Shown here piece by piece: positions 2,724-63,493 of a stretch of 64,000 bases of DNA. A model generated the notes under the pieces. That model was not told where the DNA came from and made no database searches. It worked only from the letters and a program-made list of their open reading frames with translations. Both the position numbers and the translations under genes were made by a program. The DNA comes from a virus, in the IMG/VR virus record IMGVR_UViG_3300045988_132388. The stretch is one strand, 5' to 3'. Within the stretch, counting starts at the first letter, position 1. Every line of letters starts with the position of its first letter.

Positions 2724-2841
2724 TGTGTTATCCGAATGCAAAAGTAAAAAACATCCTATTAAGGCTTTGGACGAAAAATGCCGTCATCCTCACAGACAAC
2801 GGCACCGGTAGATAAAAAAAAATCAAAAAAAGAAATCAGCT

Positions 2842-6498: not shown

Positions 6499-7080
6499 TT
6501 AATCAGTAAAAGTAGACGAGGTTTCGCCAAAGGGACTGAGCTTATCCATGACAAATGGTATAGTACAGACATATTGCGCTACTTTATAGCGTAGGTCTTC
6601 TTTCGACATACCTCCATTGTTAAATATTCTGCGGTCGAATTTAATCCCCATAGCTGCATTCAGACGCTCCACGTCCCGCAATATACGTGAGAGCTTGACA
6701 CCTCTTGCCAAACGTGTTACTGTAGAACTTTTGATATAAAAGGAATATATCTGAATTTCGGGATGACGATCTTTCATGTCTATCAATCCGACTTCATCCA
6801 CAATATAGATAGCTATATCTTTCACCTGATCTACAGTAGCCCAATATTCATAGCCACCATACTGTGTATATGCTAACACCTCATCAGGATCCACATTAAA
6901 CTCTTTTACAAAATGATGCTCTCTGCCTTCCTGTTCTCCTTCACGCATAGGACGTGTGGTATAGGAACAGATAATAGGCCAGTCTGTCATTTCTGACATT
7001 ATCCGAGCTACAGTGTCCTTTCCTGCACCGCTCAGACCGGTAATTGTTATTAGTTTCATATCAATCTTCTTTATATTCAC
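6499..7080 (-). CDS. guanylate-kinase-like dNMP kinase
   Basis: 193 aa. It has the P-loop ITGLSGAGKDT and YTTRPMREGEQEGREHHFV, a GMP-kinase-type motif. The start could instead be the internal Met at 7059, which would remove the 20-nt overlap with the upstream gene. Confidence 0.8.
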   Translation of the reverse strand: MNIKKIDMKLITITGLSGAGKDTVARIMSEMTDWPIICSYTTRPMREGEQEGREHHFVKEFNVDPDEVLAYTQYGGYEYWATVDQVKDIAIYIVDEVGLIDMKDRHPEIQIYSFYIKSSTVTRLARGVKLSRILRDVERLNAAMGIKFDRRIFNNGGMSKEDLRYKVAQYVCTIPFVMDKLSPFGETSSTFTD

Positions 7081-8167
7081 TCAAAAGAGCGTTGCCGCAG
7101 GTTATTCTATCCTCGTCCTCTTCCACAGAAGGAACAAAAACAATCACATCCCAACCTGCCTTGACAAGCGGTTGTTCAAACTGTTTGTAAACATCGTATG
7201 TGTAATATCCCTCCTCAGTCTGAATGCCATTACTTATAGCCTCTTTTGTCTCGTGAATAGGAGTTATCTTTACAATGAACTTTTCCTTATCAAAGAGTTT
7301 GTCCAAAACGGCAGGGTCTAATATCGTGTCTTTAGTGACAGGAAAATTCAACGTGTACTTTCTGCCGACCGGCATAGGTAAATCACGGCAAATCTCTGAG
7401 ATTTCCTGCAAAGTCAAGGATCGACCACGGAACAAATCATTACGCTGCTCTTCATCTGTAGAGTTTATAGACAACTGCAATCCGGCTTCACCTCTAAACT
7501 CGTAGTTCTTGAGTTGACAGAACTCACCAAGAATACGTTTCAGAGTTTTGCTTCCCAAAGAACCCGGAAGCATGGTCGTAAATACAGGATGGATAACATC
7601 TGCATCCATGAATACGTTGACATCATCCCTGAGATAGCACAGCAAATATATCTTGATGTTATTCCAGTTGAATGACGGTTCGCCCATACGAGCCAGATGA
7701 AGGTTGAAACGCTTGGTGTGCTGACACTCCGAACGAACGATAGCCGATATTACTTCTTCTCGCAGATCGCTAACCTTAGCATTACCGTGGAAACCGACTT
7801 TAGGGCAGTCACAGAACTTACATTTCATCGGACATCCTTTTTGAGTGGAAATAGTAACAACCATCTTATCCTCAAGATCTACCTTCTTATGGGTTACACC
7901 ATTAATTTCCTTAGTCAATCCAAGGAAGTCCGCCTTTATGTTGGCTTCCTTGCCATAGTCGCCAACATATAAATATTCAAGACATTTTTTAGTATCACTA
8001 AAAATTGCTCCAGTACGAGTCTTAGATTCTTTAATCATAATAGAAATACATATCGTTTTATTGATATTTTCAATCTTTAATTCAAATGGACGAGAAGTTA
8101 TAAAACGAGGTGAGCCACATTCTTTATACGGCACTTCTGTGATAGTGATGGCGATAGTGATAGCCAC
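7061..8167 (-). CDS. RlmN/Cfr-like radical SAM RNA methyltransferase homologue
   Basis: [36 protein letters not shown] parallels the E. coli RlmN stretch [47 protein letters not shown] parallels MGMGEPLLNLNNV. The C-terminal ITCGNAL parallels AACGQL. The annotated start is GTG at 8167; an ATG at 8038 is an alternative. Confidence 0.75.
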   Translation of the reverse strand: [368 protein letters not shown]

Positions 8168-8204: not shown

Positions 8205-8350
8205 TGACTGCGGAGTGATTTTCGCGCAATACTTGCTCTAACCAGCTGAGCTACTTTTCTTCCGAAAAGAAAAGATAGGATTCGAACCTATGACCTCGTG
8301 AGACACGTTTCGGAAAAACGTATGATTCACTAAAAAGAAAACTCCGTATG
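8205..8350 (-). ncRNA. circularly permuted tRNA-like RNA (YrlA/Y-RNA-like topology)
   Basis: The minus strand from 8300 to 8231 reads AGGTC ATAGG-TTCGAAT-CCTAT CTTTTCTT-TTCGG-AAGAAAAG TA GCTC-AGCTGGTTA-GAGC A. In order this gives variable loop, T arm, both acceptor strands closed by a loop, U8-A9, D arm and A26. There is no anticodon arm. The flanks (8337-8346 and 8211-8223) are complementary. Outer boundaries are approximate. Confidence 0.6.
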
Positions 8351-10618: not shown

Positions 10619-10807
10619 ATCTTTTACACTCCTTATTGTTTTCGGTTACAAAATTAAAAAATACATTTCACTCCAACAAACATTTTGTCTTTTTATTTGA
10701 GTGTCACATACTTTTTAACTTTTATAGTTCTATTAGTTAAGGGTTATACCTAATATTAAGCCAAGTAATATTCATAAACATCAGTTTCGCCCCAACCTTT
10801 ATATATA

Positions 10808-22120: not shown

Positions 22121-22278
22121 TTTTGTGTTGTGTTTTATGTGTTGTTGTTCTGAATTTTATACACAAAGTTACTGATAAACTGCTACGCACAGCGGACATG
22201 GTGGGGTGCGTGGAGATGGGGTATGTCCGTATGGGGAAGAAAGAATATCGTAACTTTGGCTACATAAAACACAACACT

Positions 22279-44040: not shown

Positions 44041-44700
44041 TTATGCTTTTTCAGAAATGTTCAAACTGCTCAGATATTTCATTATTTGCCACGTTGAATA
44101 GATACTACGTTTGCAATCATAGACAGGATTGTGCGGCTCGCCAGGTCCGTCGTATTCATCAACCAACCTGCAAGCCCTGCTGCAATCAAACTCCCCACCT
44201 GCCTTGTCGCAGACAATTTTCGCACCTTCCATAAAGAATGTGCGGTGGTCGCGGAAATTCTTGTAGCTGACAGGACTCTCGATACCATATTTGCTGCATA
44301 TATTCTTTAATATGGCAATATCAAAATCAGAACCTTGTGACCACAACTTTACTTCTTTGGTAGAAGTTTCGTCTTGCACATACGCGATAAAACTAAAAAA
44401 ATCCTCTATGACGCTATCTATCGACTGTAGAGGTTTTTCGTCGTAATCCAACAATGACTTTTTTACATCATCGCCCTGTGTTGCCCACCATTCCGATGTC
44501 TTTCTATCAAAGGTTAGTCCATCAATAAATGATGATCGCAGGTCAACGTGACGATAAAAAAAGTAACCGTCGGAAAGACCGTCCGTAAAAGGATCGTCTT
44601 CCGCCGCGGCATTCCATGCCACAGCTCCGATGCTCATCACGGCAGCCGTGGGGCACAAGGCACAGGTTTCTAAGTCAAAGGTTATATTCAATTCACCCAT
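44041..44700 (-). CDS. DEDD-family 3'-5' exonuclease
   Basis: 219 aa. It has the Exo I motif ITFDLETCAL near the N-terminus, later acidic motifs (WSQGSDFDIAIL) and a C-terminal H..YD. Confidence 0.7.
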   Translation of the reverse strand: MGELNITFDLETCALCPTAAVMSIGAVAWNAAAEDDPFTDGLSDGYFFYRHVDLRSSFIDGLTFDRKTSEWWATQGDDVKKSLLDYDEKPLQSIDSVIEDFFSFIAYVQDETSTKEVKLWSQGSDFDIAILKNICSKYGIESPVSYKNFRDHRTFFMEGAKIVCDKAGGEFDCSRACRLVDEYDGPGEPHNPVYDCKRSIYSTWQIMKYLSSLNISEKA

Positions 44701-45209: not shown

Positions 45210-45306
45210 TATGCAAAGATAGCGCATATTACACGACTATCCAATAATATTACCATTTTTAACATAAAAAATTATTCGAATATCATACAATTTAAAATTT
45301 AACAAA

Positions 45307-45909
45307 ATGAAAGAGCATAACATCGTGTACAATTATGGGTTTCTCGCCGACTGGATGCAGGCTAACCCATCTATTAAGAGAAACGAGATTCTTCAAAGCA
45401 TGGAGATGAGTGACTACAACACCTTGCGCAACTGGGTGGATGGTATAACAATGCTCCCGCTTACACAGCTGATGAAATTCTGCAACCGCTTCAATATTCC
45501 CATTACTGCATTCTTTCTGGATGAGAAAGCCGACGACACATCAATCATAGCACCTATCACACCAAGCTCTATGATTGAACCTGCCAGAGGATGGCCCGAC
45601 TCCAACCGGAAGGCAGGTATCAAGGTGTGCGACCCACGCTCTAACGTCCACATGATTACGAACATGCCTGACTATATAAGAGAAAGGGACACTACGGATA
45701 TTTGCGAACAGACCTCAGATAATATTAGTAGTGTGCCAGAGAAAGAACGAATGCGTTACATTGATATAATAGAGAAGCTCAACGACCGGTTAATGGCTCT
45801 GTCCGAAGAGAATATCAAACTGAATAAACAGATAAACAAGATGAAAAAAGAAAGGAAGGGAAATATTTACGGCTACGGCATGGTTGCAGAAACCGACCCT
45901 CATATATAA
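45307..45909 (+). CDS. putative HTH regulator (repressor-position gene)
   Basis: 200 aa and the only plus-strand gene within about 34 kb of minus-strand genes. It has an N-terminal HTH-like segment (NEILQSMEMSDYNTLRNWVDG) and a C-terminal coiled coil. Confidence 0.5.
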   Translation: MKEHNIVYNYGFLADWMQANPSIKRNEILQSMEMSDYNTLRNWVDGITMLPLTQLMKFCNRFNIPITAFFLDEKADDTSIIAPITPSSMIEPARGWPDSNRKAGIKVCDPRSNVHMITNMPDYIRERDTTDICEQTSDNISSVPEKERMRYIDIIEKLNDRLMALSEENIKLNKQINKMKKERKGNIYGYGMVAETDPHI

Positions 45910-45914
45910 CAAAA

Positions 45915-45946
45915 GCATCCGCCTATCTTCGCAGACTGGCGGATGC
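45915..45946 (-). terminator. stem-loop terminator (minus sense)
   Basis: GCATCCGCC (45915-45923) pairs with GGCGGATGC (45938-45946). On the minus strand TTTTGTT follows. The position would stop read-through into the antisense of the HTH gene. Confidence 0.6.
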
Positions 45947-47480: not shown

Positions 47481-47546
47481 TGCCGTTATTTTTTATTTCC
47501 GTTACAAAGGTACGTAAAACTAAAATAACGAACAGGACATGCTAAA

Positions 47547-47595: not shown

Positions 47596-49191
47596 TTACT
47601 TGATTTTTCTATATTGCAATACAATTTTTTTTCGCTTGTCGTTCTTGAAACAATGTCCAAGAAGCTGACTTAACTTATTGAAAGAAATGTCATCTTTTAT
47701 GGCATTCTCCATACCTTCTATCTGCTCCTGTGTAACAACAAGCTGAACGGTGTTGCCATCGTATTGATCAAACGTCATCTTTCTCAACAAGCCTGACAAT
47801 TCACAACCCAACCACTCGCCTGTTTCGCCATCAAGCATGGCGATAAGCTGCTGCCATTCCTTTTCGCCCGGCTTAGGCTTTACATCTTCGGTACCAGCAA
47901 ACAGGAGGAGTTGCTGCTGCACCTCGGTTTTCTTACTATGCTGCTTTATCCATTGCTCCATAATATAAAAGATAAAGTTCTCTGTCGTGCCACTCCAACT
48001 GTGCGGCTGCTCCACCGCCTTTGGCACACCATTATAGGCATACGTCTTAAAATCGCTCCAGAGGTCTTCGGGAACATCGGCAACAAATGCTTTGAGCTGT
48101 TCTTTGTCGAGTGTGGGGTATAGCGACATCAACTTGGCGCATAAACGCTTTTCTGACGAACCGCGATGCAGCTCTATTTCTCGCGCTACGCCCAACGGTG
48201 TGCGCTTGATGTGAAACTTTATCTTCTCAGGATTGCCTCGTTTTGCACTGCCTCTATAAATCGGTTCGTAGCCTTTTTTGTCAGGATCGGTACATGCCAG
48301 CATTATCTCAATCTTGTTTTCCTCACAGAGTCGCTCCATGTCACCACGTGCTACGTCCAACACCTGTTTGCGAAACTGCGAGAACTTCTGATACTTCTCA
48401 GTAGTCACAACTTTTGCGGGCTGCATATCGTCACCTTTCTCAACATCAACTTTGAACATCCCCAATGCTTCCTTCAGTTCGCGATAATCAATAGAAGGGT
48501 GCATCTGGCCCTTGCTCGCATATTTCATCAGAAGAAGGTAAAGACGTGACGTATAAGCCGAATTGCAGAAGTAAGCTATACGTTCAAGATGGTTGAAATA
48601 TCCGTCTGCCATATCAAACACGGCTTTTGCCACCTCTATATTAATTGTTACCTCAATATACCCGTCACGACGAAACTTGCGCACTTCCAGTCCGTCCTCG
48701 TCTATCTTTGTATCGCCGTCTCTGGAATAGTTGAAGTCTCCTCCTTCTCGCGACGTGAAGTTTTTCGGAATAAATATCTTACTGAAGATAGGCATATAGT
48801 CCTCACCTTTTCTAAGTCCTGTCTCCGGATCGAAACGCGGCAGGTGAAACTCTATCTTCTTCATCTGGTTTATCACCTTTACCGATTCGTCATAATGGCT
48901 GCTGTCTATACCAAAATCAGCCAGGCGCAGACGTATGGGTCCCATCTTCAACAGGTCTTCTTTCGTGATTCCTCCGTTAGGACGTTCTTTGCTTAGATAT
49001 CGGTGTTCGTTCAAGAACTTGGCGAAATGGTCTTGCAGTCGTCCGCTTACCAGCAACATAACGTCCTGTTGTATGAGAGAATAACTTTTAGCGTATGACG
49101 CATAGTTGACAGGTGTGTTTATCCAACGCAATTCGTTCAGGGCTATTTGAAGTTTGCCTTCTTTGTCTTCTTTTTTTGCTTTCTTTGCCAT
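47596..49191 (-). CDS. rep: plasmid-type replication initiator protein
   Basis: 531 aa. The gene abuts the iteron array: its start is 3 nt from the first iteron. The N-terminal region resembles Rep_3/RepB-type initiators, but the family call is tentative. Confidence 0.6.
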   Translation of the reverse strand: MAKKAKKEDKEGKLQIALNELRWINTPVNYASYAKSYSLIQQDVMLLVSGRLQDHFAKFLNEHRYLSKERPNGGITKEDLLKMGPIRLRLADFGIDSSHYDESVKVINQMKKIEFHLPRFDPETGLRKGEDYMPIFSKIFIPKNFTSREGGDFNYSRDGDTKIDEDGLEVRKFRRDGYIEVTINIEVAKAVFDMADGYFNHLERIAYFCNSAYTSRLYLLLMKYASKGQMHPSIDYRELKEALGMFKVDVEKGDDMQPAKVVTTEKYQKFSQFRKQVLDVARGDMERLCEENKIEIMLACTDPDKKGYEPIYRGSAKRGNPEKIKFHIKRTPLGVAREIELHRGSSEKRLCAKLMSLYPTLDKEQLKAFVADVPEDLWSDFKTYAYNGVPKAVEQPHSWSGTTENFIFYIMEQWIKQHSKKTEVQQQLLLFAGTEDVKPKPGEKEWQQLIAMLDGETGEWLGCELSGLLRKMTFDQYDGNTVQLVVTQEQIEGMENAIKDDISFNKLSQLLGHCFKNDKRKKIVLQYRKIK

Positions 49192-50045: not shown

Positions 50046-50921
50046 TTAAAACGTGAAACTGTTGATTATTTCCTTAGTAAAACGCTCATAGTCCTGCCCC
50101 ACCCTACAATATGGTGCATAAGAAAAAATATCCTCACGCATAGCCTGAGCTTCCACCATCTTCGTATCGCGACGTGTGTAAGCGTCAAACATATAGTCCT
50201 GGTACTTCTCACCCAGGTATGCTTTAAACTCCTTTGTGGCGTTCGTCTGGTCGTTACTCATAACCATCAGCAAGCCACGAATATCAAGGTCAGGATTCAA
50301 ATCCTCGCGCGTCTCCTCGATGGCATTGATAATCTCGGCAATACCTTTTGTCGCCAATACTTCGAGCTGCACGGGCAATACCACGCTTGTGGCTGCTGTC
50401 AGTGCGTTGTACGTGAGCAACGACATGGCAGGGGGACAGTCTATCAGCACGTAGTCGAAAGCTTCCGTAACGGTCGTTACGCCCTCGTCTGCCAGTTCTG
50501 TACCGCTCAACTCGTTCAGTGGTTTTGTGAGCAACTTATAAAGTGCCTTGCGGGGCATGGCTCTCTGGTTTAGGAAGGGTTCGATGGATATAAGTTGTGA
50601 AGCTGCCGGAGCGAGATAGATGCCATCGCGTACCTGATAGATGGGCAGATTGCTCTGCTGTACCAATGCGTCGTAGACGGTAGGCTTGCCAACGTTCTGA
50701 GTCTCGCTCCATCCGAAGAGGAACGATGCACATGCCTGGGGATCGAGGTCTATGATGAGCACACGCGGTAAACGCTTGTGTCCGTCGGCATCCGTGCCAA
50801 ATTTTCCCTTACCAAAGATGCGCAGTCCTGCTGCCAAGCTCTGTACTGTTGTTGTCTTACCTACTCCCCCCTTATGGTTTACGAAGGCAAGAACTTCTCT
50901 TAGTCTTTCCATATTCTTCAA
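50046..50921 (-). CDS. parA: ParA-family partition ATPase
   Basis: 291 aa with the deviant Walker A motif VNHKGGVGKTTT. VLIDCPP and other ParA/Soj-type motifs are also present. Confidence 0.9.
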   Translation of the reverse strand: MKNMERLREVLAFVNHKGGVGKTTTVQSLAAGLRIFGKGKFGTDADGHKRLPRVLIIDLDPQACASFLFGWSETQNVGKPTVYDALVQQSNLPIYQVRDGIYLAPAASQLISIEPFLNQRAMPRKALYKLLTKPLNELSGTELADEGVTTVTEAFDYVLIDCPPAMSLLTYNALTAATSVVLPVQLEVLATKGIAEIINAIEETREDLNPDLDIRGLLMVMSNDQTNATKEFKAYLGEKYQDYMFDAYTRRDTKMVEAQAMREDIFSYAPYCRVGQDYERFTKEIINSFTF

Positions 50922-51028
50922 GTTTTAAAATGTTTATATTGTCTATTCCAGTCTTCAGAAACACTATGCTTTCTGTAAGACGTTACAAATTTAAGAATTA
51001 TAATCCACATTCGCAAACATTCACGCAC

Positions 51029-57899: not shown

Positions 57900-57907
57900 C
57901 AAAGGTA
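57900..57907 (-). promoter_or_regulatory. Bacteroidota-type -7 promoter box (TACCTTTG on the minus strand)
   Basis: The plus strand reads CAAAGGTA. The box is about 70 nt upstream of the ATG at 57831. Confidence 0.45.
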
Positions 57908-58080
57908 GTGATAATTTTTGAAACTACCAAATAAAAAGCCGTTTTATTTCAAGTAAAATGTACTTTTATTGTTTTTCTACCTTTTTACACCGGATTCCCC
58001 ATATCTTCTGCGTCATCTGATGTTTTTTTAACAACAAATATCACATATTAGTGCGATTAGTGTCATTCGTTGTTTTCTCA

Positions 58081-58250
58081 TTGTCGCCCATCCAGGAGCT
58101 CGAACCTGGCGCCACGCCTTGCCGTGGTGGGCGTTGCGCTGTGGCTATCCTCACGGACCGCCAGCAGCTAAAAAAATACTCTGAGTATCATTATGCAAGA
58201 TCCCGCCGAAGGAGTCGAACCGTCGCAAAGGCCGTGCCGGACGCGGGATG
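58081..58250 (-). ncRNA. structured RNA element, copy 1 (two T-arm-like minihelices plus a GNRA hairpin)
   Basis: The minus sense reads ATCCCGC...GACGG-TTCGACT-CCTTC-G-GCGGGAT, then a U-run. Next comes the hairpin GCTGCTGGCGGTCC-GTGA-GGATAGCCACAGC. It ends with CGCCCA-CCACG-GCAAGG-CGTGG-CG-CCAGG-TTCGAGCT-CCTGG-A-TGGGCG. A second copy lies at 59591-59757. Confidence 0.55.
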
Positions 58251-58259
58251 GGGTGCGTT

Positions 58260-58439
58260 TTAGAACGTCTGACGGAGGCAAGAGAACAGTACATCAAGTC
58301 CTGAGTTGTACTCTATACGCTCCTTGCTGCTGAACTCGTCGAGGTTGGGAGGTGTCAGGGTGATGTACTCGATAATGCGTGTCATTGCCTCACGGAGGCT
58401 CTCTTTATCCATATCTATTGTTATAACTGTCTTTTCCAT
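58260..58439 (-). CDS. small hypothetical protein (59 aa)
   Basis: Hand-translated MEKTVITIDMDKESLREAMTRIIEYITLTPPNLDEFSSKERIEYNSGLDVLFSCLRQTF. The stop abuts RNA element copy 1. Confidence 0.45.
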   Translation of the reverse strand: MEKTVITIDMDKESLREAMTRIIEYITLTPPNLDEFSSKERIEYNSGLDVLFSCLRQTF

Positions 58440-58465
58440 TGTTGTTTTAATTTTTATTTATATCG

Positions 58466-58594
58466 TTATTTGTTCGTAAATGCTCCTCCCAACAGAGGGA
58501 GGAAGAAAACGGCTGCTCCTAACAAGGAAAACAGCACTACACACACGCTGGCTATCACCAAGGCTGCGATGATATAGGTTAACGCCTTCTTCAT
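58466..58594 (-). CDS. 42-aa membrane micropeptide paralogous to the ligase C-terminal tail
   Basis: Hand-translated MKKALTYIIAALVIASVCVVLFSLLGAAVFFLPLLGGAFTNK. Its ATG overlaps the upstream stop (ATGA). About three quarters of residues are identical to the last 37 residues of the ligase, while the DNA is clearly diverged. Confidence 0.55.
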   Translation of the reverse strand: MKKALTYIIAALVIASVCVVLFSLLGAAVFFLPLLGGAFTNK

Positions 58595-59220
58595 CTGAGG
58601 AAATGATTACCCTCCAGCTTCGCCATCGTCTCCAGATATACCATCTGCGAGGTATAGTAACAGAGATTTGTGTATGTAGTTATCCAGTTGTTATATTCTT
58701 TTTTCACTCGGTCGCTACGGTTTGAAAGGTCGAAGAGTCTCTTCCAACGCTGATAAATCTCGTCTGTATAGTCTCTCAGCGGTCTGAGAGACGTTTCCAA
58801 GTCGCAAGGCTTAGAGTATACGGGTGCCGGATAAGTAATCTCACCACTTGCCACCTTGTGAAATACTTGGCGGTAGACCTCGAACACTGCGCGAACCTTA
58901 CGAGCGATGAAAAACTCAAGGCAAGGGACGGAGAGCATGTAGATGTTAGTCGGGCGACCTCCTTGAGGTTTTGCGCATCTTTGCGGAAAACTATCAGAGT
59001 TTTCCGCATTTCTGCGTAAAACTTGATAATCAATGTCTTCGACAAACAATCTGTCGTTTTTCAAGGCTCTCACTGCCTCTTCTTTTCTGCCGAATACTAA
59101 CGGCCACACATCATCGAGATTAACGGGAAATTCCTCGCTGTCTCTTGTCAATCTTAATACTTCCTCGAAGTACGCCTTAATCTCTTGATCGGTACTTTGT
59201 TTTGTTAATTGTAAAATCAT
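58591..59220 (-). CDS. hypothetical protein (possible AntA/Bro-type DNA-binding N-terminus)
   Basis: 209-aa ORF. FPVNLDDVWPLVFGRKEEAVRAL...GGRPTNIYMLSVPCLEFFIARK is loosely antirepressor-like, with low certainty. Confidence 0.6.
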   Translation of the reverse strand: MILQLTKQSTDQEIKAYFEEVLRLTRDSEEFPVNLDDVWPLVFGRKEEAVRALKNDRLFVEDIDYQVLRRNAENSDSFPQRCAKPQGGRPTNIYMLSVPCLEFFIARKVRAVFEVYRQVFHKVASGEITYPAPVYSKPCDLETSLRPLRDYTDEIYQRWKRLFDLSNRSDRVKKEYNNWITTYTNLCYYTSQMVYLETMAKLEGNHFLR

Positions 59221-59278
59221 ATTGTTTTGATAAAAAAAATGAAATCCTCAATATTTTATACACTATATAAAGAGGCGT

Positions 59279-59560
59279 TTACCACTTGATAGAAACTATC
59301 ATTGCCACGAACATTACCACCACGCCGAAGCCGAGGTATTGCCACCCCGTCATTATTACGGGGTCTTCCTGGTCGGTGAAGTTGTGGCGACTGTTGAGCC
59401 ACTGGCATACGCTCAGGGCTGCACGCTGTGCAAATCCGAAAGCTTTCGCCATGCACTGCAAAAGGAACACAAGACAAAGCGTCAGGCACTTGCAAAAAGA
59501 TCGTGCTACGTCCGCTGCGCTCACCTGGGGCGCGGTCGGTGTTGTTGCTGTTGCTTTCAT
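59279..59560 (-). CDS. small membrane protein
   Basis: 93 aa with two hydrophobic segments. Confidence 0.55.
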   Translation of the reverse strand: MKATATTPTAPQVSAADVARSFCKCLTLCLVFLLQCMAKAFGFAQRAALSVCQWLNSRHNFTDQEDPVIMTGWQYLGFGVVVMFVAMIVSIKW

Positions 59561-59590
59561 ATCTTTCTAATTTTTATAGGGTTTATAATA

Positions 59591-59757
59591 TTGTCGCCCA
59601 CCCAGGAGCTCGAACCTGGTGCCACGCCTTGCCGTGGTGGGCGTTGCGCTGTGGCTATCTTCACAGACTGCCAGCAGCAAAAAAATACTCTGATTATGAT
59701 TATGCAAGATCCCGCCGATGGGGTCGAACCATCGTAGAGCCATGCCGGGCGCGGGAG
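59591..59757 (-). ncRNA. structured RNA element, copy 2
   Basis: It has the same architecture as copy 1. It shows a compensatory change in the hairpin (GTCT-GTGA-AGAT), a perfect T-like stem (GATGG-TTCGACC-CCATC) and a 7-bp closing stem (CGCCCAC/GTGGGCG). Confidence 0.55.
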
Positions 59758-59771
59758 AAGAAGAGGTGGGG

Positions 59772-59954
59772 TTATCGTTGTACACTCAATTCTACGGTTT
59801 CGCATTGACGAATACACTTCTTCCTGAACTTGCAGCGACTATGCTTCTTCAGGTATCTCAGCTCCTGGTCGGCTTCTTTTTCTGTATACTCTATTCCGTT
59901 GTACTCACGCCAATCACCTTCAATAAAGGCGTAAATGCTATAAAATTTTGTCAT
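59772..59954 (-). CDS. small hypothetical protein
   Basis: 60-aa ORF behind the cassette motif. The stop abuts RNA element copy 2. Confidence 0.5.
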   Translation of the reverse strand: MTKFYSIYAFIEGDWREYNGIEYTEKEADQELRYLKKHSRCKFRKKCIRQCETVELSVQR

Positions 59955-59976
59955 AATTCCGTCGTTTTTTAAAGGT

Positions 59977-59990
59977 TCTATAATATAGGG
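59977..59990 (-). promoter_or_regulatory. cassette motif TCTATAATATAGGG (minus sense CCCTATATTATAGA), copy 1
   Basis: 22 nt upstream of the ATG at 59954. Confidence 0.5.
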
Positions 59991-60269: not shown

Positions 60270-60285
60270 AAAATTCTAATAAAAG

Positions 60286-60299
60286 TCTATAATATACTA
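60286..60299 (-). promoter_or_regulatory. cassette motif variant TCTATAATATACTA, copy 2
   Basis: 16 nt upstream of the ATG at 60269. Confidence 0.4.
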
Positions 60300-60536: not shown

Positions 60537-60558
60537 AATTTTCTAATATTTTACACGT

Positions 60559-60572
60559 TCTATAATATAGGG
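60559..60572 (-). promoter_or_regulatory. cassette motif TCTATAATATAGGG, copy 3
   Basis: 22 nt upstream of the ATG at 60536. The spacer CATAATTTTCTAATATTTT is identical to that of copy 4. Confidence 0.5.
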
Positions 60573-60922: not shown

Positions 60923-60944
60923 AATTTTCTAATATTTTGAAAGG

Positions 60945-60958
60945 TCTATAATATAGGG
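60945..60958 (-). promoter_or_regulatory. cassette motif TCTATAATATAGGG, copy 4
   Basis: 22 nt upstream of the ATG at 60922. Confidence 0.5.
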
Positions 60959-60970
60959 GGTATCTCCTGA

Positions 60971-61003
60971 GCGTGTGCGGAATCCTTAATATTTCGCACA
61001 CGC
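60971..61003 (-). terminator. 9-bp-stem hairpin after the 805-aa gene
   Basis: GCGTGTGCG (60971-60979) pairs with CGCACACGC (60995-61003). There is no clear U-run. Cassette motifs 4 and 5 flank it. Confidence 0.4.
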
Positions 61004-61015
61004 TATAATATAGGA
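61002..61015 (-). promoter_or_regulatory. cassette motif variant GCTATAATATAGGA, copy 5
   Basis: Immediately downstream of the 805-aa gene stop and overlapping the hairpin arm. Confidence 0.35.
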
Positions 61016-61017
61016 GT

Positions 61018-63435
61018 TTATGCGGCGGTGTGCTGCTTTGGATGTGGCGTGCCGAACAGGTAGCGCCATTCTTCAGGCGTGAGCGCTTCGGCGGCTCTGC
61101 GGTCGGCGGTGCTGCTTAACCTCTGGATGGCCTCCAGTGCGCAAGATGTGGCCGACCGTTCGCCCACGCTTTCGGGCGATATGCTCGCGGCTAACGTCAT
61201 GAGGTCGTACACCTCCACGCCTAAAGCGTTGAGGGCATGCAGCCTGGCGCGTAATGCGTCCAGCGGGTTTTTATTCCTGCCGTTCTGGCGAAGGTCGGCG
61301 GCGACGTAACGCAATAGGGCGAGGCGTTCAGCGGGTGCCGTGATTTCATCGGCTGTGGAATCGGGCGGCGTGCTCTCGCCTTTCTCGGTGCTGTCTTCCG
61401 GCTGCTCCTCCTTGCTGAAGCCGTACAGCGTGCGGAACTCGTCAGCCGTGAGCACGGCGGCGGCACGCTGTCGGGCGCGTTGGTCGGCCTTATAGTCGGC
61501 ACGTTGCACGAGGTCGGCAACGTCCACGCCACACACAAAGAGGGCGGAAAGTCTCGCGTTTATGGCGGCTATGTGCTCCCCTGCTTGCGTCAATCGGTCG
61601 AAGTCTTCGGCGGCACTACGCAACAGCTCCAGGCGGTCAGATGCCAGCACGTCCGCGAAGTCTTCCGCGTTGTCGGTCGGTGCGGTTGCCGTGATTTCGG
61701 CGGCCTCGTATAACGTAGCATCTGCGCCCGTCTGGGCGGTTGTGCTGTCTTCTTCGGCGGTCTGGGCATCAGCTACCACGAACCACTCGCGCAGGCGTTC
61801 CACGGCCTCGGGTTCGCGTGCTTGCCACTGCTGGGCGGTTTTGTTCCAGGTCGCACCGTGTGCCTTGATTGCCTTACGGTTGCGGTAGGTGGTGCGGCTG
61901 TCGCCTACCACTGCCACGCCCTCGGCAGTCTCCAACAACTGCAGACCCTCGGCGGGTGCGTCGGTGTCGGTCTGTGCTGCATCCTGAGCGTGTGCGGCTT
62001 CGGTGTGCTTGGTCGGTGTCGGGTCGGTAGGCTCTGGCGTTGTGGTCTTGGTGTAGCTGCGCACATTCCAAGCACGGCGGGCGATGGTCTCGGCGTTCTC
62101 GGCGTAACCGTGTGCGAAGATGTCGCACACGTCCACGCCCAGGGCTGCGGCCACGGCCTCGGCCTCCTTGTTGGCGTATGTGTACGCGTCAGTATAACCG
62201 TATTTATTGCGATTGTCGGCGGCTGGCACGGCTGCGAAGATCTGCGCCAATATCTCGGCGCGTGCCTCGTCCGACATTTCGCGGCTTGTCTTAATATCGC
62301 CGCCGTTGCTGCCCATGGTCAGGCGTGCGAAGTCGGCAAACTCGGCGTAATCTACGCCCGTACTGTCGTCCCATCCGTTGAAGGTGTCACGGCAACGGCA
62401 GAACAACGAAAGATCGGTTTTTTCGTTGAACTCCTCAACGGTCGGGCCGTCGGTCCATGACAATTCAAAATCGGCGCCCCAGCCGTGGCGAACCTTCAAA
62501 GAGAATTTAACGCCGGGGAAGGCGGCGCGACACATTGCTAAAATATTAGCCTTCCGCGCGTTCATTAGCTGGCGGCTTGTGGTCTTCGGGTCAGCCTCTA
62601 ACGGGCGCACATCCTGCATCAGGTGCGCCCACTTGGCGCAACGTGCGCGATACTTTGCGCGGCGCTGCGCTCTCTTCTCTGCTGCCTGTCGCTCCTCTTC
62701 CGCCTTGCGGGCTTCTTCGGCTGCCTTAACGCTTGCCACCTCGTCGGCGAGCATTACGGGCCACTCTATAGGTACATATATATAACGGGCGTAATTGTAG
62801 CCCTCGGAATCTATAAGATAGTATTTGCCCGATGGTGACACGACGAGCGCGCCGACGGTATAAAAAGTACCCAATTTTTCAGGGTCGTTATAGTATGTAT
62901 CGCCTTCGTCCACGTCCTCAGAACGTGAAAAGCCCTGCAGGTTGTGACGTGTTACCAGTTCATCGGCAAGTCCCGGGCGTACAAAATCCGCCTCCGATAC
63001 ATTTATAATTTGCTCAACACAACATAAGCGGGCGGGCTTCTCGGCTGCGTGTGTGTAGTAGTTGAGGTTGTGCAGCTCCTCCATCAGGCCGCGGCCTCCG
63101 TCACACTTTAGGCCGCTATTATCAGCCCAGAAGAAGCCACCAACGGCGGGCACTCCTTCGAGGCGGTCGGCCTCCTGCGCGTGCTGTGCGTACTTGGTGC
63201 GCTGGTGTGCGGCCTTCTTCTCTGCGATGATCTCGCGGGCTTTTGCTTCTGCTTGCTCGGTCGTGTCCTTGCCGAAGGTTTTAATATATGCCGGACGTGA
63301 TACGGGCGACATGGTGCCGCACCATCCGCACAAGCAAATATATTGCTCGTTGTCGCTGTAATACTGTGCGCTCTCGGCCTTGTCGGCAAATACTTTTACT
63401 AAATTCTCGACTATCTCGTTAAATGTTGCTTTCAT
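61018..63435 (-). CDS. large GC-rich multidomain protein (polyvalent-protein-like)
   Basis: 805 aa. It has a Cys-containing N-terminus and a basic coiled coil. FSLKVRHGWGADFELSWTDGP...TFNGWDDSTG is a domain reminiscent of those in large polyvalent proteins of mobile elements. A small G.T.YRNRKAIKAHGATWNKTAQQW module and two ~90-aa C-terminal repeats follow. Confidence 0.7.
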   Translation of the reverse strand: MKATFNEIVENLVKVFADKAESAQYYSDNEQYICLCGWCGTMSPVSRPAYIKTFGKDTTEQAEAKAREIIAEKKAAHQRTKYAQHAQEADRLEGVPAVGGFFWADNSGLKCDGGRGLMEELHNLNYYTHAAEKPARLCCVEQIINVSEADFVRPGLADELVTRHNLQGFSRSEDVDEGDTYYNDPEKLGTFYTVGALVVSPSGKYYLIDSEGYNYARYIYVPIEWPVMLADEVASVKAAEEARKAEEERQAAEKRAQRRAKYRARCAKWAHLMQDVRPLEADPKTTSRQLMNARKANILAMCRAAFPGVKFSLKVRHGWGADFELSWTDGPTVEEFNEKTDLSLFCRCRDTFNGWDDSTGVDYAEFADFARLTMGSNGGDIKTSREMSDEARAEILAQIFAAVPAADNRNKYGYTDAYTYANKEAEAVAAALGVDVCDIFAHGYAENAETIARRAWNVRSYTKTTTPEPTDPTPTKHTEAAHAQDAAQTDTDAPAEGLQLLETAEGVAVVGDSRTTYRNRKAIKAHGATWNKTAQQWQAREPEAVERLREWFVVADAQTAEEDSTTAQTGADATLYEAAEITATAPTDNAEDFADVLASDRLELLRSAAEDFDRLTQAGEHIAAINARLSALFVCGVDVADLVQRADYKADQRARQRAAAVLTADEFRTLYGFSKEEQPEDSTEKGESTPPDSTADEITAPAERLALLRYVAADLRQNGRNKNPLDALRARLHALNALGVEVYDLMTLAASISPESVGERSATSCALEAIQRLSSTADRRAAEALTPEEWRYLFGTPHPKQHTAA

Positions 63436-63479
63436 AATCTTTGTATTTTTGTTACTAATTCAGTGAATAAAAAGGGGGT

Positions 63480-63493
63480 GCTATAATATAACG
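63480..63493 (-). promoter_or_regulatory. cassette motif variant GCTATAATATAACG, copy 6
   Basis: About 45 nt upstream of the ATG at 63435. Confidence 0.35.

What the first reader, a model, noticed from the sequence alone, without database searches (positions are those of the whole stretch)
58081..59757. Duplicated ~170-nt structured RNA element carrying two tRNA T-arm/acceptor-like minihelices
Two copies (58081-58250 and 59591-59757) lie 1.5 kb apart. Both are on the minus strand and both begin a few nt after the stop of a ~60-aa gene. In the minus sense each copy contains three modules:
- (A) A 7-bp closing stem (ATCCCGC/GCGGGAT) enclosing a T-arm look-alike (GA(C/T)GG-TTCGAC(T/C)-CC(T/A)TC).
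- A U7 run following module A.
- (B) A long bulged hairpin capped by GTGA.
- (C) A three-way junction with closing stem CGCCCA(C)/(G)TGGGCG, hairpin CCACG-GCAAGG-CGTGG and a second T-like arm CCAGG-TTCGAGCT-CCTGG.

The plus-strand ORFs across the copies change frame at an A-run indel, and their substitutions are mostly non-synonymous, so coding is unlikely. Together with the permuted tRNA mimic at 8.2 kb, this gives the phage three tRNA-like modules. They could be processing punctuation (RNase P/Z), 3'-end protection, or decoys for tRNA-targeting enzymes or defences.
Basis: partly seen in the sequence, partly recalled or inferred. Interest (0 to 1): 0.75.

Follow-up and report, generated by a model that had tools for sequence, protein, structure and literature searches.

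The report
Anticodon-less tRNA mimics punctuating phage operons
A Prevotella-type phage carries two copies of a conserved non-coding RNA cassette, in which two tRNA look-alikes lacking the anticodon arm flank a terminator-style hairpin; it most likely lets the host's tRNA-trimming enzymes cut and cap the phage's early messages.

Summary
Two 169-nt minus-strand copies (58080-58248 and 59590-59756) are about 90% identical. Each starts 10-15 nt after the stop codon of a 59-60-aa gene.

Each copy has four parts:
- tRNA-like module A;
- an AU-rich linker with a U run;
- hairpin B, with a covarying stem and a near-invariant GUCCGYGAGGAUA cap;
- tRNA-like module C.

A and C are related to each other. 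Each is a tRNA without its anticodon arm: a 6-7-bp acceptor stem, a short D-like hairpin, a canonical T-arm, and then N73 and an invariant C74.

I found about 77 distinct modules in about 50 related phage contigs from gut metagenomes and Prevotella MAG bins. Stems pair in about 95% of cells and show many compensatory changes. G·U pairs fix the sense strand. ARAGORN and Rfam do not recognise the element.

The modules can occur separately. B-type hairpins followed by a U tail serve as ordinary terminators elsewhere, including twice in this window. B is followed by either C or a U tail, never both. A always sits 6-17 nt after a stop codon.

My best reading (inferred, about 0.45) is a tRNA-mimic processing and 3'-end-formation cassette cut by host RNase P and RNase Z. 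Rival readings are mini-tRNA decoys, a tRNA-flanked sRNA, and a DNA-level site. I rate it a new variant of a known kind.

The parts
58199..58249 (-). Copy 1, module A. It is a tRNA-like RNA without an anticodon arm. Acceptor U58248-C58243 pairs with G58206-A58201, and A58249-U58200 adds a 7th pair. A D-like hairpin lies around 58241-58231. The T-arm is G58224-G58220 / loop 58219-58213 / C58212-C58208. N73 is U58200 and C74 is C58199.
   Evidence: Generic tRNA-like model R2 scores 50.0 bits, E 1.7e-07. Sequence read. The A alignment pairs in 96.6% of cells, with C-G to U·G changes and two T-stem pairs carrying double changes.
58169..58198 (-). Copy 1 linker: UUGCAUAAUGAUACUCAGAGUAUUUUUUUA. It is AU-rich and probably single-stranded, with a U7 run at 58176-58170.
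   Evidence: The motif (C)AUAAUC..AGUAU(4-9)G U(3-5) is conserved upstream of B in nearly all relatives, including those without A. The U-run length varies. There is no TAnnTTTG promoter box here.
58138..58168 (-). Copy 1, hairpin B. An 8-bp outer stem with one bulge is followed by a G·A mismatch and then GUCC-GUGA-GGAU, a 4-bp stem with a GNRA loop.
   Evidence: Part of the R1 match, 104.8 bits. Eight of 12 pairs show double changes, and the G·U pair is kept in 56/58 sequences. The same cap occurs on U-tailed terminators.
58083..58137 (-). Copy 1, spacer GCAA (58137-58134) plus module C. Acceptor C58133-A58128 pairs with U58090-G58085. The D-like hairpin is 58126-58113. The T-arm is C58109-G58105 / 8-nt loop 58104-58097 / C58096-G58092. 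N73 is A58084 and C74 is C58083.
   Evidence: R2 scores 58.2 bits, E 4.3e-09; R1 match. Covariation in the acceptor, D-like and T stems.
59708..59757 (-). Copy 2, module A. It has a 6-bp acceptor and a fully paired T-stem, GAUGG/CCAUC.
   Evidence: R2 scores 49.7 bits, E 2e-07. The MFE fold reproduces the module.
59679..59707 (-). Copy 2 linker: UUGCAUAAUCAUAAUCAGAGUAUUUUUUU.
   Evidence: Alignment of the two copies; conserved in relatives.
59648..59678 (-). Copy 2, hairpin B. Its cap is GUCU-GUGA-AGAU, a compensatory C-G to U-A change relative to copy 1.
   Evidence: R1 scores 102.4 bits; sequence.
59593..59647 (-). Copy 2, spacer GCAA plus module C. Here the 7th acceptor pair, C-G, is formed. 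The motif AUAUUAUAAACCCUAUA and the start of the 93-aa gene (59560) follow directly.
   Evidence: R2 scores 59.6 bits, E 2.3e-09. This copy is positionally orthologous to the divergent 'b' variants in relatives, which precede the same gene family.
57900..57931 (-). Canonical Bacteroidota-type promoter (TTTG-N20-TACCTTTG), about 150 nt downstream of copy 1. It marks copy 1 as sitting at the end of a transcription unit.
   Evidence: Pattern scan. This is a consensus match only, not shown to be functional.

Best explanation
The cassette is a cis-acting RNA processing and 3'-end-formation element in the phage's early, small-gene operons.

Proposed mechanism (all steps below are inferred, none was observed):
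1. The cassette is transcribed as part of the mRNA.
2. Modules A and C fold into the 'top half plus elbow' of a tRNA: acceptor/T-arm stack, T-loop docked on a D-like loop, then N73-C74. This is the part that host RNase P, RNase Z and the CCA-adding enzyme recognise. The anticodon arm, which those enzymes do not need, is missing.
3. RNase P cuts at the 5' edge of C. The upstream RNA then ends in hairpin B plus a 4-5-nt tail. This is the same kind of end that the phage elsewhere makes by intrinsic termination at B-type hairpins with a U tail.
4. Cuts at A, which sits 6-17 nt after the stop codon, detach or cap the upstream coding region.
5. The result is a punctuated transcript with defined, structure-capped ends, plus two released mini-tRNA-like RNAs of about 50 nt.

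Shown here: the structure, its conservation, its sense strand, its modularity and its fixed position relative to ORFs.
Inferred: transcription, cleavage by RNase P/Z, CCA addition, and any effect on mRNA stability.
For: 1. Structure under selection.
- B+C: 61 distinct sequences, 95.4% of cells paired against 27-38% for slid controls, and 22 of 27 pairs with double changes.
- All tRNA-like modules: 77 distinct, 95.5% paired, and 8 of 11 pairs with double changes. Whole acceptor helices are swapped between types (CGCCCA/UGGGCG, CGCCCG/CGGGCG, CACUCC/GGAGUG, UCCCGC/GCGGGA, GGCCGC/GCGGCU).

2. Sense-strand RNA. About 125 G·U cells, including a G·U kept in 56/58 B hairpins, would be A·C mismatches on the other strand. 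The element always has the orientation of the flanking ORFs.

3. tRNA end-processing determinants are kept.
- The T-loop is UUCRA (partly required by my search patterns, but also present in modules found only by the models).
- The acceptor plus T stack is 11-12 bp.
- C74 is invariant in 77/77 modules. N73 is A in 61/77. N-1 is A in 62/77.
- Positions 75 onward vary, so CCA is not encoded. The phage's own tRNA-Met also lacks an encoded CCA.

4. Position. A starts 6-17 nt after the upstream stop in 30 of 34 distinct contexts, although the upstream genes belong to many unrelated families. Copy 1 lies about 150 nt upstream of a canonical promoter, that is, at an operon end.

5. B is a 3'-end hairpin.
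- At least 10 distinct B-type hairpins (different stems, same cap) are followed by a U tail at gene ends. Two are in this window (45915-45946 and 2777-2806).
- 54 are followed by C after 4-6 nt with no U tail. None has both.

6. Precedent. An anticodon-less tRNA-like module with a 7-bp acceptor (M. smegmatis YrlA) is cleaved by RNase P and CCA-tailed in vivo (PMC4201824).

7. No canonical promoter in the window linkers, so co-transcription with upstream genes is the simplest reading.
Against: - There are no expression or end-mapping data. Cleavage is wholly inferred.
- The acceptor stems are mostly 6 bp plus a mismatch, and the same paper bp a major determinant for RNase P.
- The window copies of C have an 8-nt T-loop.
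- The near-invariant B cap and the conserved linker sequence are not explained by a pure 'cut here' function. They suggest an additional sequence-specific partner, either a protein or an RNA.
- RNase P cleavage at A would leave the upstream mRNA with an unprotected 3' end, which is hard to rationalise as beneficial.
- Covariation for A alone is weak (2 pairs with double changes).
- Alignments A3 and A6 were fitted to the models, which inflates the pairing counts somewhat.
Confidence: 0.45

Rival explanations
1. The useful products are the released mini-tRNAs. After excision and CCA addition, A and C act in trans as decoys or sponges. Their targets would be proteins that read the acceptor/T-arm/CCA end of tRNAs. 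These could be host anti-phage effectors that attack tRNA 3' ends, or host tRNA enzymes the phage wants to titrate.
For: - The modules keep exactly the acceptor/T-arm/elbow/C74 part and discard the decoding part.
- There are two paralogous types per cassette and up to four modules per genome region.
- At least one immune nuclease, Cas12a3, binds T-arm + acceptor + CCA and cleaves truncated tRNAs that lack the other arms (PMC12851939).
- The cassette lies in an early region next to a polyvalent LPD29 protein, a typical place for counter-defence genes.
- The same phage also carries a YrlA-like tRNA mimic.
Against: - No such effector is known for these hosts, and none was sought here.
- A decoy needs high copy number and stability, which is untested.
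- It does not explain why A must sit 6-17 nt after a stop codon, nor why B and the linker are conserved.
- Nothing distinguishes it computationally from the processing model. Both share the first steps.
Confidence: 0.2
2. The functional RNA is the middle piece: the AU-rich linker plus hairpin B. It would be a small regulatory RNA or a protein-binding site (nut/boxB-like). Its ends are defined by the flanking tRNA mimics, or by a U-tail terminator, much as tRNA-flanked guide RNAs or tRNA-spacer sRNAs are excised.
For: - The linker sequence and the B cap are the most sequence-conserved single-stranded or apical parts.
- Linker+B is the constant core. It occurs as A-linker-B-C, linker-B-C, A-linker-B-Utail and [B-C]-linker-[B-C].
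- A was never found without linker+B (26/26; the four loci new from that scan read).
- In every arrangement the predicted 3' end falls just after B.
Against: - No target or partner was identified.
- Complementarity of the linker to AUUAUG start regions is only 6-7 nt of AU-rich sequence.
- U-rich tracts also precede plain B-type terminators, so the linker may simply be part of the terminator module.
- A GNRA-capped hairpin could be conserved for stability alone.
Confidence: 0.15
3. It is a DNA-level or merely historical feature. It could be a recombination hotspot or mosaic boundary, a protein-bound site, or decaying remnants of phage tRNA genes with no RNA function.
For: - Flanking genes are extremely mosaic.
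- Some copies are truncated inside B or reduced to C alone, as expected at recombination joints (L010 2494-2581, L034 6952-7039, L005 8503-8585).
- The two window copies look homogenised (90% identity), whereas the orthologous upstream site in relatives holds a divergent variant.
Against: - Compensatory changes that keep helices, G·U pairs tolerated on one strand only, invariant T-loop and C74 positions across paralogous types, and a fixed orientation relative to genes are all signatures of selection on a folded sense-strand RNA. They do not fit duplex DNA or neutral decay.
- Recombination at conserved sequence is an expected side effect, not an alternative function.
Confidence: 0.07
4. B+C (or the whole cassette) is an independently transcribed small RNA gene. 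Its promoter would lie in the U-rich linker, with B as a 5' leader.
For: - Many relatives have TAnnTTTG-like strings (for example GTATTTTTG) 5-8 nt before B.
- The 'b' variants have no A upstream.
Against: - The T-run length varies from 4 to 9, so spacing to the TA is not kept.
- The window copies have no TAnnTTTG at all, and no -33 TTTG. The scan for the Bacteroidota consensus finds seven clean intergenic promoters on this strand elsewhere but none in the linkers.
Confidence: 0.08

Closest known systems
Plant mitochondrial t-elements and mitochondrial 'tRNA punctuation' (established knowledge, not tested here)
   Same: Partial tRNA-like structures (acceptor/T-arm) sit next to coding regions within polycistronic or extended transcripts. 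They serve as RNase P / RNase Z cleavage signals that define mRNA ends. Location at ORF borders matches: A lies 6-17 nt after stops.
   Different: Those are organellar. Here the setting is a dsDNA phage of Bacteroidota. The module is paired with a dedicated conserved hairpin (B) and an AU-rich linker. Cleavage is not demonstrated.
MALAT1/MEN-beta 3' end with mascRNA (established knowledge)
   Same: A tRNA-like structure directly downstream of a protective RNA structure. RNase P cleavage creates a non-terminated 3' end capped by that structure and releases a small tRNA-like RNA that is CCA-tailed. The B-(4-5 nt)-C layout is formally analogous.
   Different: That case is a eukaryotic nuclear lncRNA whose protective element is a triple helix, not a GNRA hairpin. 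mascRNA keeps a (short) anticodon arm. There is no sequence relationship.
YrlA / bacterial Y RNA-like RNAs (Rfam RF02553; PMC4201824)
   Same: tRNA mimics with a T-arm, a D-arm and an acceptor-like stem but no decoding function. M. smegmatis YrlA is cut by RNase P and CCA-tailed. They are also found in phages. This same window has a weak YrlA-like match at 8205-8316.
   Different: In YrlA the arms are permuted (T-arm, acceptor hairpin, D-arm) inside a Ro60-binding stem, and the RNA accompanies an rsr gene. A and C are in tRNA order with free ends. They have no Ro-binding stem and no RF02553 match even at E = 10. No TROVE protein was seen among the 30 window proteins scanned against Pfam.
tmRNA tRNA-like domain
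   Same: An acceptor stem plus T-arm without an anticodon arm.
   Different: There is no G3·U70, no tag reading frame and no pseudoknots. ARAGORN (including permuted tmRNA) and Rfam are negative. Each module closes on itself within about 50 nt.
RNase P-processed phage sRNAs (P1/P7 C4 RNA, P4 CI RNA) and T4 tRNA-cluster stable RNAs (established knowledge)
   Same: Phage non-coding RNAs whose ends are made by host tRNA-processing enzymes acting on tRNA-like features.
   Different: There is no sequence or architectural similarity. Those are trans-acting antisense or immunity RNAs, whereas this cassette sits at ORF ends in mosaic early operons.
Intrinsic (Rho-independent) terminators / lambda boxB-type GNRA hairpins (for module B)
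   Same: A GC-rich hairpin. The same capped hairpin followed by a U tail sits at gene ends in these phages. The GNRA-type loop is conserved as in boxB.
   Different: In the cassette B has no U tail. The 13-nt cap is conserved across unrelated stems, which ordinary terminators do not show. No N-like or other partner protein was identified.

Membership tests
Canonical tRNA | A cloverleaf with an anticodon stem-loop (5-bp stem, 7-nt loop), detectable by tRNA finders. | tested here: not met
   ARAGORN finds only tRNA-Met at 2650-2724 in the window. Rfam tRNA (RF00005) gives no match in 57900-59900 even at E = 10. No arm lies between the D-like hairpin and the T-arm. Two ARAGORN 'tRNA-Ala' calls on B+C in relatives rest on a G·U/U-run acceptor and are artefacts.
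Canonical tRNA | A T-arm with a 5-bp stem and a UUCRAnn loop, stacked on a 7-bp acceptor stem, followed by a discriminator. | tested here: met
   GGUUCRA is present in nearly all modules. The T-stem and acceptor covary. The acceptor is 6-7 bp. N73 is followed by an invariant C74. The window C copies have an 8-nt loop, whereas relatives have 7.
tmRNA (one-piece or permuted) | A tRNA-like domain with G3·U70 alanine identity, plus a tag ORF and pseudoknots. | tested here: not met
   ARAGORN tmRNA search is negative and Rfam is negative. The third acceptor pair is C-G in both A and C.
YrlA / Y RNA-like (RF02553) | A match to the covariance model, a permuted T-arm / acceptor hairpin / D-arm inside a Ro-binding stem, and a neighbouring rsr (Ro60/TROVE) gene. 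| tested here: not met
   No RF02553 match at the cassette at E = 10. The arm order is tRNA-like, not permuted. No TROVE domain among the 30 window proteins scanned against Pfam. By contrast, 8205-8316 does match RF02553 weakly (33.6 bits against a gathering score of 69).
tRNA-like processing signals (t-elements / mascRNA type) | A partial tRNA fold retaining the acceptor/T-arm stack and elbow, placed at the border of a longer transcript. | tested here: met
   Architecture shown. A lies 6-17 nt after stop codons in 30/34 contexts, and C abuts hairpin B or the next gene's upstream motif.
tRNA-like processing signals (t-elements / mascRNA type) | Actual endonucleolytic cleavage by RNase P (5' side) and RNase Z (3' side), with CCA addition. 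| not testable with these tools
   This needs end-mapped RNA-seq or in vitro assays. The only precedent is from YrlA (PMC4201824).
Intrinsic terminator (module B) | A GC-rich hairpin immediately followed by a U tract. | tested here: not met
   In both window cassettes B is followed by GCAA and then module C. The terminator scan lists nothing at B. B-type hairpins with U tails do exist elsewhere: 45915-45946, 2777-2806 and at least 8 more in relatives.
Any described RNA family (Rfam 15) | A covariance-model match. | tested here: not met
   No gathering-level match, and no relevant match at E = 10 over 57900-59900.
Protein-coding sequence | A conserved reading frame, with indels in multiples of three. 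| tested here: not met
   1-nt indels between the two copies. Variable U-run and loop lengths among relatives. No ORF is shared across copies.

The most novel reading that the evidence does not exclude
Phages of Prevotella have evolved a bacterial counterpart of the MALAT1/mascRNA strategy. A terminator-type hairpin is given its 3' end by RNase P cleavage at an adjacent anticodon-less tRNA mimic, rather than by termination. The excised, CCA-tailed mini-tRNAs (A and C) then double as decoys for host factors that read tRNA acceptor ends, for example immune nucleases or transferases that attack the CCA tail. The same genome's YrlA-like RNA without a Ro60 gene would belong to the same tRNA-mimicry toolkit.
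Probability: 0.15. Interest if true: 0.85.

Novelty: new variant of a known kind. Interest (0 to 1): 0.62.

Why it matters
If the inferred mechanism holds, this would be a clear case of a DNA phage using partial tRNA mimics to hand its mRNAs to the host tRNA-maturation machinery. That would be termination-independent 3'-end formation and operon punctuation in a bacterial system. Comparable mechanisms are so far known mainly from organelles and eukaryotic lncRNAs.

It concerns abundant but poorly understood gut Prevotella (Segatella) phages with no close cultured relative.

The family is compact, modular and well supported by covariation, so it is directly testable:
- RNase P/Z assays;
- end-mapping in metatranscriptomes.

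It also offers natural parts (mini-tRNA processing signals, a conserved capped hairpin) for RNA engineering in Bacteroidota.

Even if the function turns out to be decoy or regulatory instead, it adds a new class of anticodon-less tRNA mimics to the phage-host conflict over tRNAs.

Tried and rejected
- **Known-family searches.** ARAGORN, Rfam at gathering level and Rfam at E = 10 recognise nothing at the cassette.
- **Annotated phage genomes.** Neither blastn with the element nor megablast with 56-64 kb finds a match. Distant protein similarity is only to Flavobacterium, Cellulophaga and Porphyromonas phages.
- **First genome-contig scan.** It returned nothing because I miscounted the distance to GGGCG in the pattern. 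The corrected pattern found 3 Prevotella MAG contigs.
- **ARAGORN 'tRNA-Ala' calls on B+C in two relatives.** Rejected as artefacts: the acceptor is built from the U run and G·U pairs.
- **Own promoter in the linker.** Rejected for the window copies: no TAnnTTTG, and the T-run length varies. The sigma-70-like hits TCGACT-N17-CATAAT inside A/linker are discounted, because to my knowledge the primary sigma factor of Bacteroidota recognises the -33/-7 consensus rather than the sigma-70 -35/-10 boxes, and because the '-35' is simply the T-loop.
- **A plus the U run as an intrinsic terminator.** Rejected: they are 24 nt apart, and the small AUACU/AGUAU hairpin before the U run exists only in copy 1.
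- **Long-range pairing of the U run with A-rich sequence downstream of C.** Only 7 nt of AU, and not conserved in the window.
- **Resemblance of the B cap to other RNAs.** I noted by eye a likeness to SRP RNA domain IV (GGUCC-GGAA-GGA), the sarcin-ricin loop, and Cas13b or type I-C CRISPR repeats. None has model support, and none was pursued.
- **attP or tRNA-gene remnant.** Rejected because each module carries both acceptor strands and covaries.
- **Partner RNA enzymes.** Pfam (30 proteins) and PHROGs (10 large proteins, partly the same ones) gave no Ro60, RtcB, CCA-adding enzyme or RNA ligase. The only RNA-related hit is an Rv2179c-like 3'-5' exoribonuclease domain at 44041-44700.
- **csRNA catalogue of PMC10690425.** It could not be checked because no supplements are held.
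- **Not used.** The metagenome scan, the protein homology searches and structure prediction. They would not discriminate between the remaining hypotheses.


Full report
**1. The observation**

The window holds two direct copies of a 169-nt sequence on the minus strand, at 58080-58248 and 59590-59756. They are 90.5% identical and 1.51 kb apart. Every gene I take as real in 46-64 kb is on the minus strand except one at 45307-45909, so the copies are in sense orientation.
- Copy 1 begins 10 nt after the stop of a 59-aa ORF (58260-58439).
- Copy 2 begins about 15 nt after the stop of a 60-aa ORF (59772-59954).

The minimum-free-energy fold of copy 2 reproduces them exactly.

Thermodynamics alone is not significant (z = -0.8 and -1.6), so the case rests on comparative data.

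The two copies differ by two single-base indels. Relatives vary in loop and U-run length. Coding is therefore excluded.

**2. Relatives**

Nothing similar is in the annotated phage collection. Pattern scans found the following:
- IMG/VR gave about 50 contigs of 50-106 kb. Most are from one metagenome project (3300045988) and a few from others.
- A scan of one genome per species found the element only on three contigs binned with uncultured Prevotella MAGs.

The window itself looks like a tailed phage, possibly plasmid-like, of a Bacteroidota host:
- It encodes a tape-measure protein, an NAD-ligase, a sliding clamp, a ParA-type ATPase and a weak Rep3 match.
- Its head protease finds only Flavobacterium, Cellulophaga and Porphyromonas phages, at 31% identity or less.
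- Its operon starts carry the Bacteroidota TTTG-N20-TAnnTTTG promoter consensus.

**3. Anatomy**

Aligning 39 diverse B+C sequences and building a covariance model (R1) recovered 74 instances in 49 sources. Only two are in the window.

On the 61 distinct sequences:
- 95.4% of cells form standard pairs, against 27-38% when the 3' partners are slid by 1-3 columns.
- 22 of 27 pairs show changes on both sides. This breaks down as 8/12 in B, 5/6 in the acceptor stem, 4/4 in the D-like hairpin and 5/5 in the T-stem.

This alignment is fitted to the model, which inflates the numbers somewhat. However, the swaps are visible in raw sequence, for example CCAGG/CCUGG against CGAGG/CCUCG against GGGG/CCCC, and CGCCCA/UGGGCG against CGCCCG/CGGGCG against CACUCC/GGAGUG.

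About 125 G·U cells, including one G·U kept in 56 of 58 B hairpins, would be A·C mismatches on the opposite strand. The folded molecule is therefore the sense strand, that is, RNA.

**4. A and C are the same kind of thing**

R1 weakly aligned its C half onto module A. I then built a second model from A-, C- and other module types, using only the acceptor and T stems as structure (R2). Scanned with filters off, it finds exactly four modules in the 64-kb window, all on the minus strand:
- A at 58199-58249
- C at 58083-58134
- A at 59708-59757
- C at 59593-59644

In the relatives it finds 111 modules.

Across the 77 distinct modules:
- Stems pair in 95.5% of cells.
- 8 of 11 pairs show double changes.

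The common architecture, in 5' to 3' order, is:
- N-1, usually A
- a 6-7-bp acceptor stem
- one or two nucleotides
- a 3-5-bp hairpin whose loop usually contains GG (D-arm-like)
- a 3-7-nt connector
- a 5-bp T-stem with a UUCRAnn loop
- one nucleotide
- the acceptor 3' strand
- N73 (A in 61, U in 11, G in 5)
- a C74 that is invariant in 77/77 modules

Positions 75 onward vary, so CCA is not encoded. The phage's own tRNA-Met also lacks an encoded CCA.

There is no anticodon arm. ARAGORN and the Rfam tRNA, tmRNA and YrlA models do not accept the modules.

For A alone the diversity is low and covariation is weak. It pairs in 96.6% of cells, with two pairs showing double changes and several C-G to U·G changes.

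**5. The cassette is modular**

Relatives show these arrangements:
- A-linker-B-C, as in the window.
- Linker-B-C without A. These are the divergent 'b' variants that occupy the position of window copy 2, directly upstream of the same 93-aa gene family.
- A-linker-B followed by UUUUU and no C (L017, L052, L034, L010).
- Tandem [B-C]-linker-[B-C''] (L039, L022, L025).
- C alone (L005).
- Copies truncated inside B (L010, L034).

Module A was found 26 times in IMG/VR; each is followed by linker+B (the four loci new from that scan read).

The linker is conserved: (C)AUAAUC..AGUAU(4-9)GU(3-5).

**6. Hairpin B is a terminator-type hairpin**

The cap (N)GUCYGNGARGAUR sits on unrelated stems elsewhere in these genomes. 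There it is directly followed by a U tail at gene ends.

Two such terminators are in this window:
- 45915-45946(-): GCAUCCGCC-AGUCUGCGAAGAUA-GGCGGAUGC-UUUUGUU
- 2777-2806(-), just upstream of the tRNA-Met promoter

Among the 69 distinct matches to a loose cap pattern in the fetched data (5 are stray hits without a B-type hairpin), 54 are followed by module C after 4-6 nt with no U tract. At least 10 are followed by a U tail without C. None has both.

U-rich sequence also precedes the plain terminators. The cassette's U run may therefore belong to the B module rather than being a terminator tail for A.

**7. Position**

The genes flanking the cassette are highly mosaic, with many unrelated small-protein families on either side. 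Nevertheless, A begins 6-17 nt after the upstream stop codon in 30 of 34 distinct contexts.

Window copy 1 is followed, about 150 nt downstream, by a clean Bacteroidota promoter (57900-57931) that starts the next operon. Copy 2 and the 'b' variants are followed within about 32 nt by the next start codon, preceded by an AUAUUAUAAACCCUAUA motif.

The window linkers contain no TAnnTTTG box. The simplest reading is that the cassette is transcribed as the 3' part of the upstream message.

**8. Mechanism (inferred)**

The anticodon arm is the one part of a tRNA that RNase P, RNase Z and the CCA-adding enzyme do not need. A and C retain the acceptor/T-arm stack, the elbow and the N73-C74 end. This is established tRNA biochemistry, and I did not test it here.

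A directly relevant precedent exists. The anticodon-less tRNA-like module of M. smegmatis YrlA is cleaved by RNase P in vitro and in vivo and receives CCA. The authors stress that a 7-bp acceptor stem is important for this (PMC4201824).

I therefore propose that host RNase P cuts at the 5' edge of C, and probably of A, and that RNase Z or exonucleases trim the 3' side.

The mutual exclusivity of 'C' and 'U tail' after B fits a model with two interchangeable ways of ending an RNA in a B hairpin:
- intrinsic termination, or
- RNase P cleavage 4-5 nt downstream.

This is formally what happens at the MALAT1/mascRNA junction. It is also how t-elements define mRNA ends in plant mitochondria.

What this model does not explain:
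- the near-invariant B cap;
- the conserved linker;
- the benefit of a cut right after the stop codon.

Acceptor stems of 6 bp plus a mismatch are also suboptimal for RNase P.

**9. Rivals**

- **Decoy or sponge.** The released mini-tRNAs may be the point, acting on factors that read tRNA acceptor ends. Such factors exist: Cas12a3 binds T-arm + acceptor + CCA and cleaves truncated tRNAs (PMC12851939). No link to these hosts was shown.
- **Linker+B as the functional RNA.** The middle piece may be the working RNA or protein-binding site, excised by its tRNA-like flanks.
- **Independent promoter in the linker.** This is unlikely for the window copies.
- **DNA-level or neutral-remnant explanations.** These are contradicted by compensatory changes, one-strand G·U tolerance and invariant tRNA-specific positions. 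The conserved sequence clearly does act as a recombination joint as a side effect.

**10. Comparison and novelty**

The element is not a member of tRNA, tmRNA, YrlA or any Rfam 15 family. The defining features were tested and not met.

It works most like tRNA-like processing signals (t-elements, mascRNA). It shares its 'tRNA without an anticodon arm' design with YrlA and the tmRNA tRNA-like domain.

A large-scale catalogue of phage candidate structured RNAs mentions unnamed tRNA-like motifs from IMG/VR (PMC10690425). I could not check whether this one is among them.

I rate it a new variant of a known kind: a new, well-supported RNA family in an understudied phage group, with a specific, testable and unusual proposed mechanism. 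The function remains unproven.

Noticed in passing
It scores 33.6 bits, E 1.1e-05 in a 401-nt search, which is below the gathering score of 69. The arm order is T-arm, acceptor-like hairpin CUUUUCU/AGAAAAG, then D-arm GCUCAGCUGGUUAGAGC, inside an outer stem. The fold z-score is -2.0. No Ro60/TROVE or RtcB gene lies nearby. The neighbours are a radical-SAM-like protein (7061-8167) and an unknown 307-aa protein. A YrlA-like RNA without Ro60 in a Bacteroidota phage would be unusual.
   Followed up: partly
window 59976-59989, 60285-60298, 60558-60571, 60944-60957, 61001-61014, 63479-63492 (all -): The motif CCUAUAUUAUAGAA, with a palindromic core CTATA-T-TATAG, recurs 25-45 nt upstream of the start codons of successive small genes and of the 805-aa gene. 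There are 15 matches at 3 mismatches or fewer, against 5.5 expected. A variant, AUAUUAUAAACCCUAUA, follows cassette copy 2 and the 'b' variants in relatives. It is a candidate phage-specific early promoter or operator, distinct from the host TAnnTTTG promoters.
   Followed up: partly
window 45915-45946 (-) and 2777-2806 (-): Two intrinsic-terminator-like hairpins carry the same conserved cap as module B (AGUCUGCGAAGAUA and UGUCUGUGAGGAUG). They sit on unrelated stems, are preceded by U-rich sequence and are followed by a U tail. A conserved 13-nt cap on otherwise unrelated terminators suggests a cap-specific binding factor.
   Followed up: partly
window 57900-57931, 50986-51017, 47505-47512, 45214-45221, 22164-22171, 10649-10680, 2739-2746 (all -): Only seven intergenic matches to the Bacteroidota -7 box TAnnTTTG occur on the minus strand (three also have TTTG at -33). 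Each lies just upstream of a gene block or of tRNA-Met. This gives a tentative operon map of the phage.
   Followed up: no
window 50046-50912 (-), 47596-49191 (-), 61018-63435 (-), 44041-44700 (-): These are a ParA/AAA_31 ATPase (E 2e-36), a weak Rep3_N initiator match (E 1e-3, below cut-off), an 805-aa protein with an LPD29 'large polyvalent protein' domain, and an Rv2179c-like 3'-5' exoribonuclease domain (E 2e-26). Together they suggest a phage-plasmid lifestyle. The exoribonuclease could take part in RNA 3'-end trimming.
   Followed up: no
L050 942-1033 and 1503-1584 (+) (IMGVR_UViG_3300012344_000020): A third sequence type of anticodon-less tRNA mimic: GGCCGC / CGGG-UAUUUAGG-CCCG / CGGGG-UUCGAGU-CCCCU / GCGGCU-AC. 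It occurs twice, 11-12 nt after stop codons and 40 nt before the next gene. It has no B hairpin and is followed by an AUAUUAUAG motif. The tRNA-like module can therefore work without B.
   Followed up: partly
L039 8645-8842, L022 1543-1739, L025 11868-12065 (-): These are tandem arrays [linker-B-C]-[linker-B-C'']. The second tRNA-like module has a completely different acceptor helix (CACUCC/GGAGUG), and its T-stem appears to end in tandem G·A pairs. ARAGORN miscalls the first unit as a 93-nt tRNA-Ala.
   Followed up: partly
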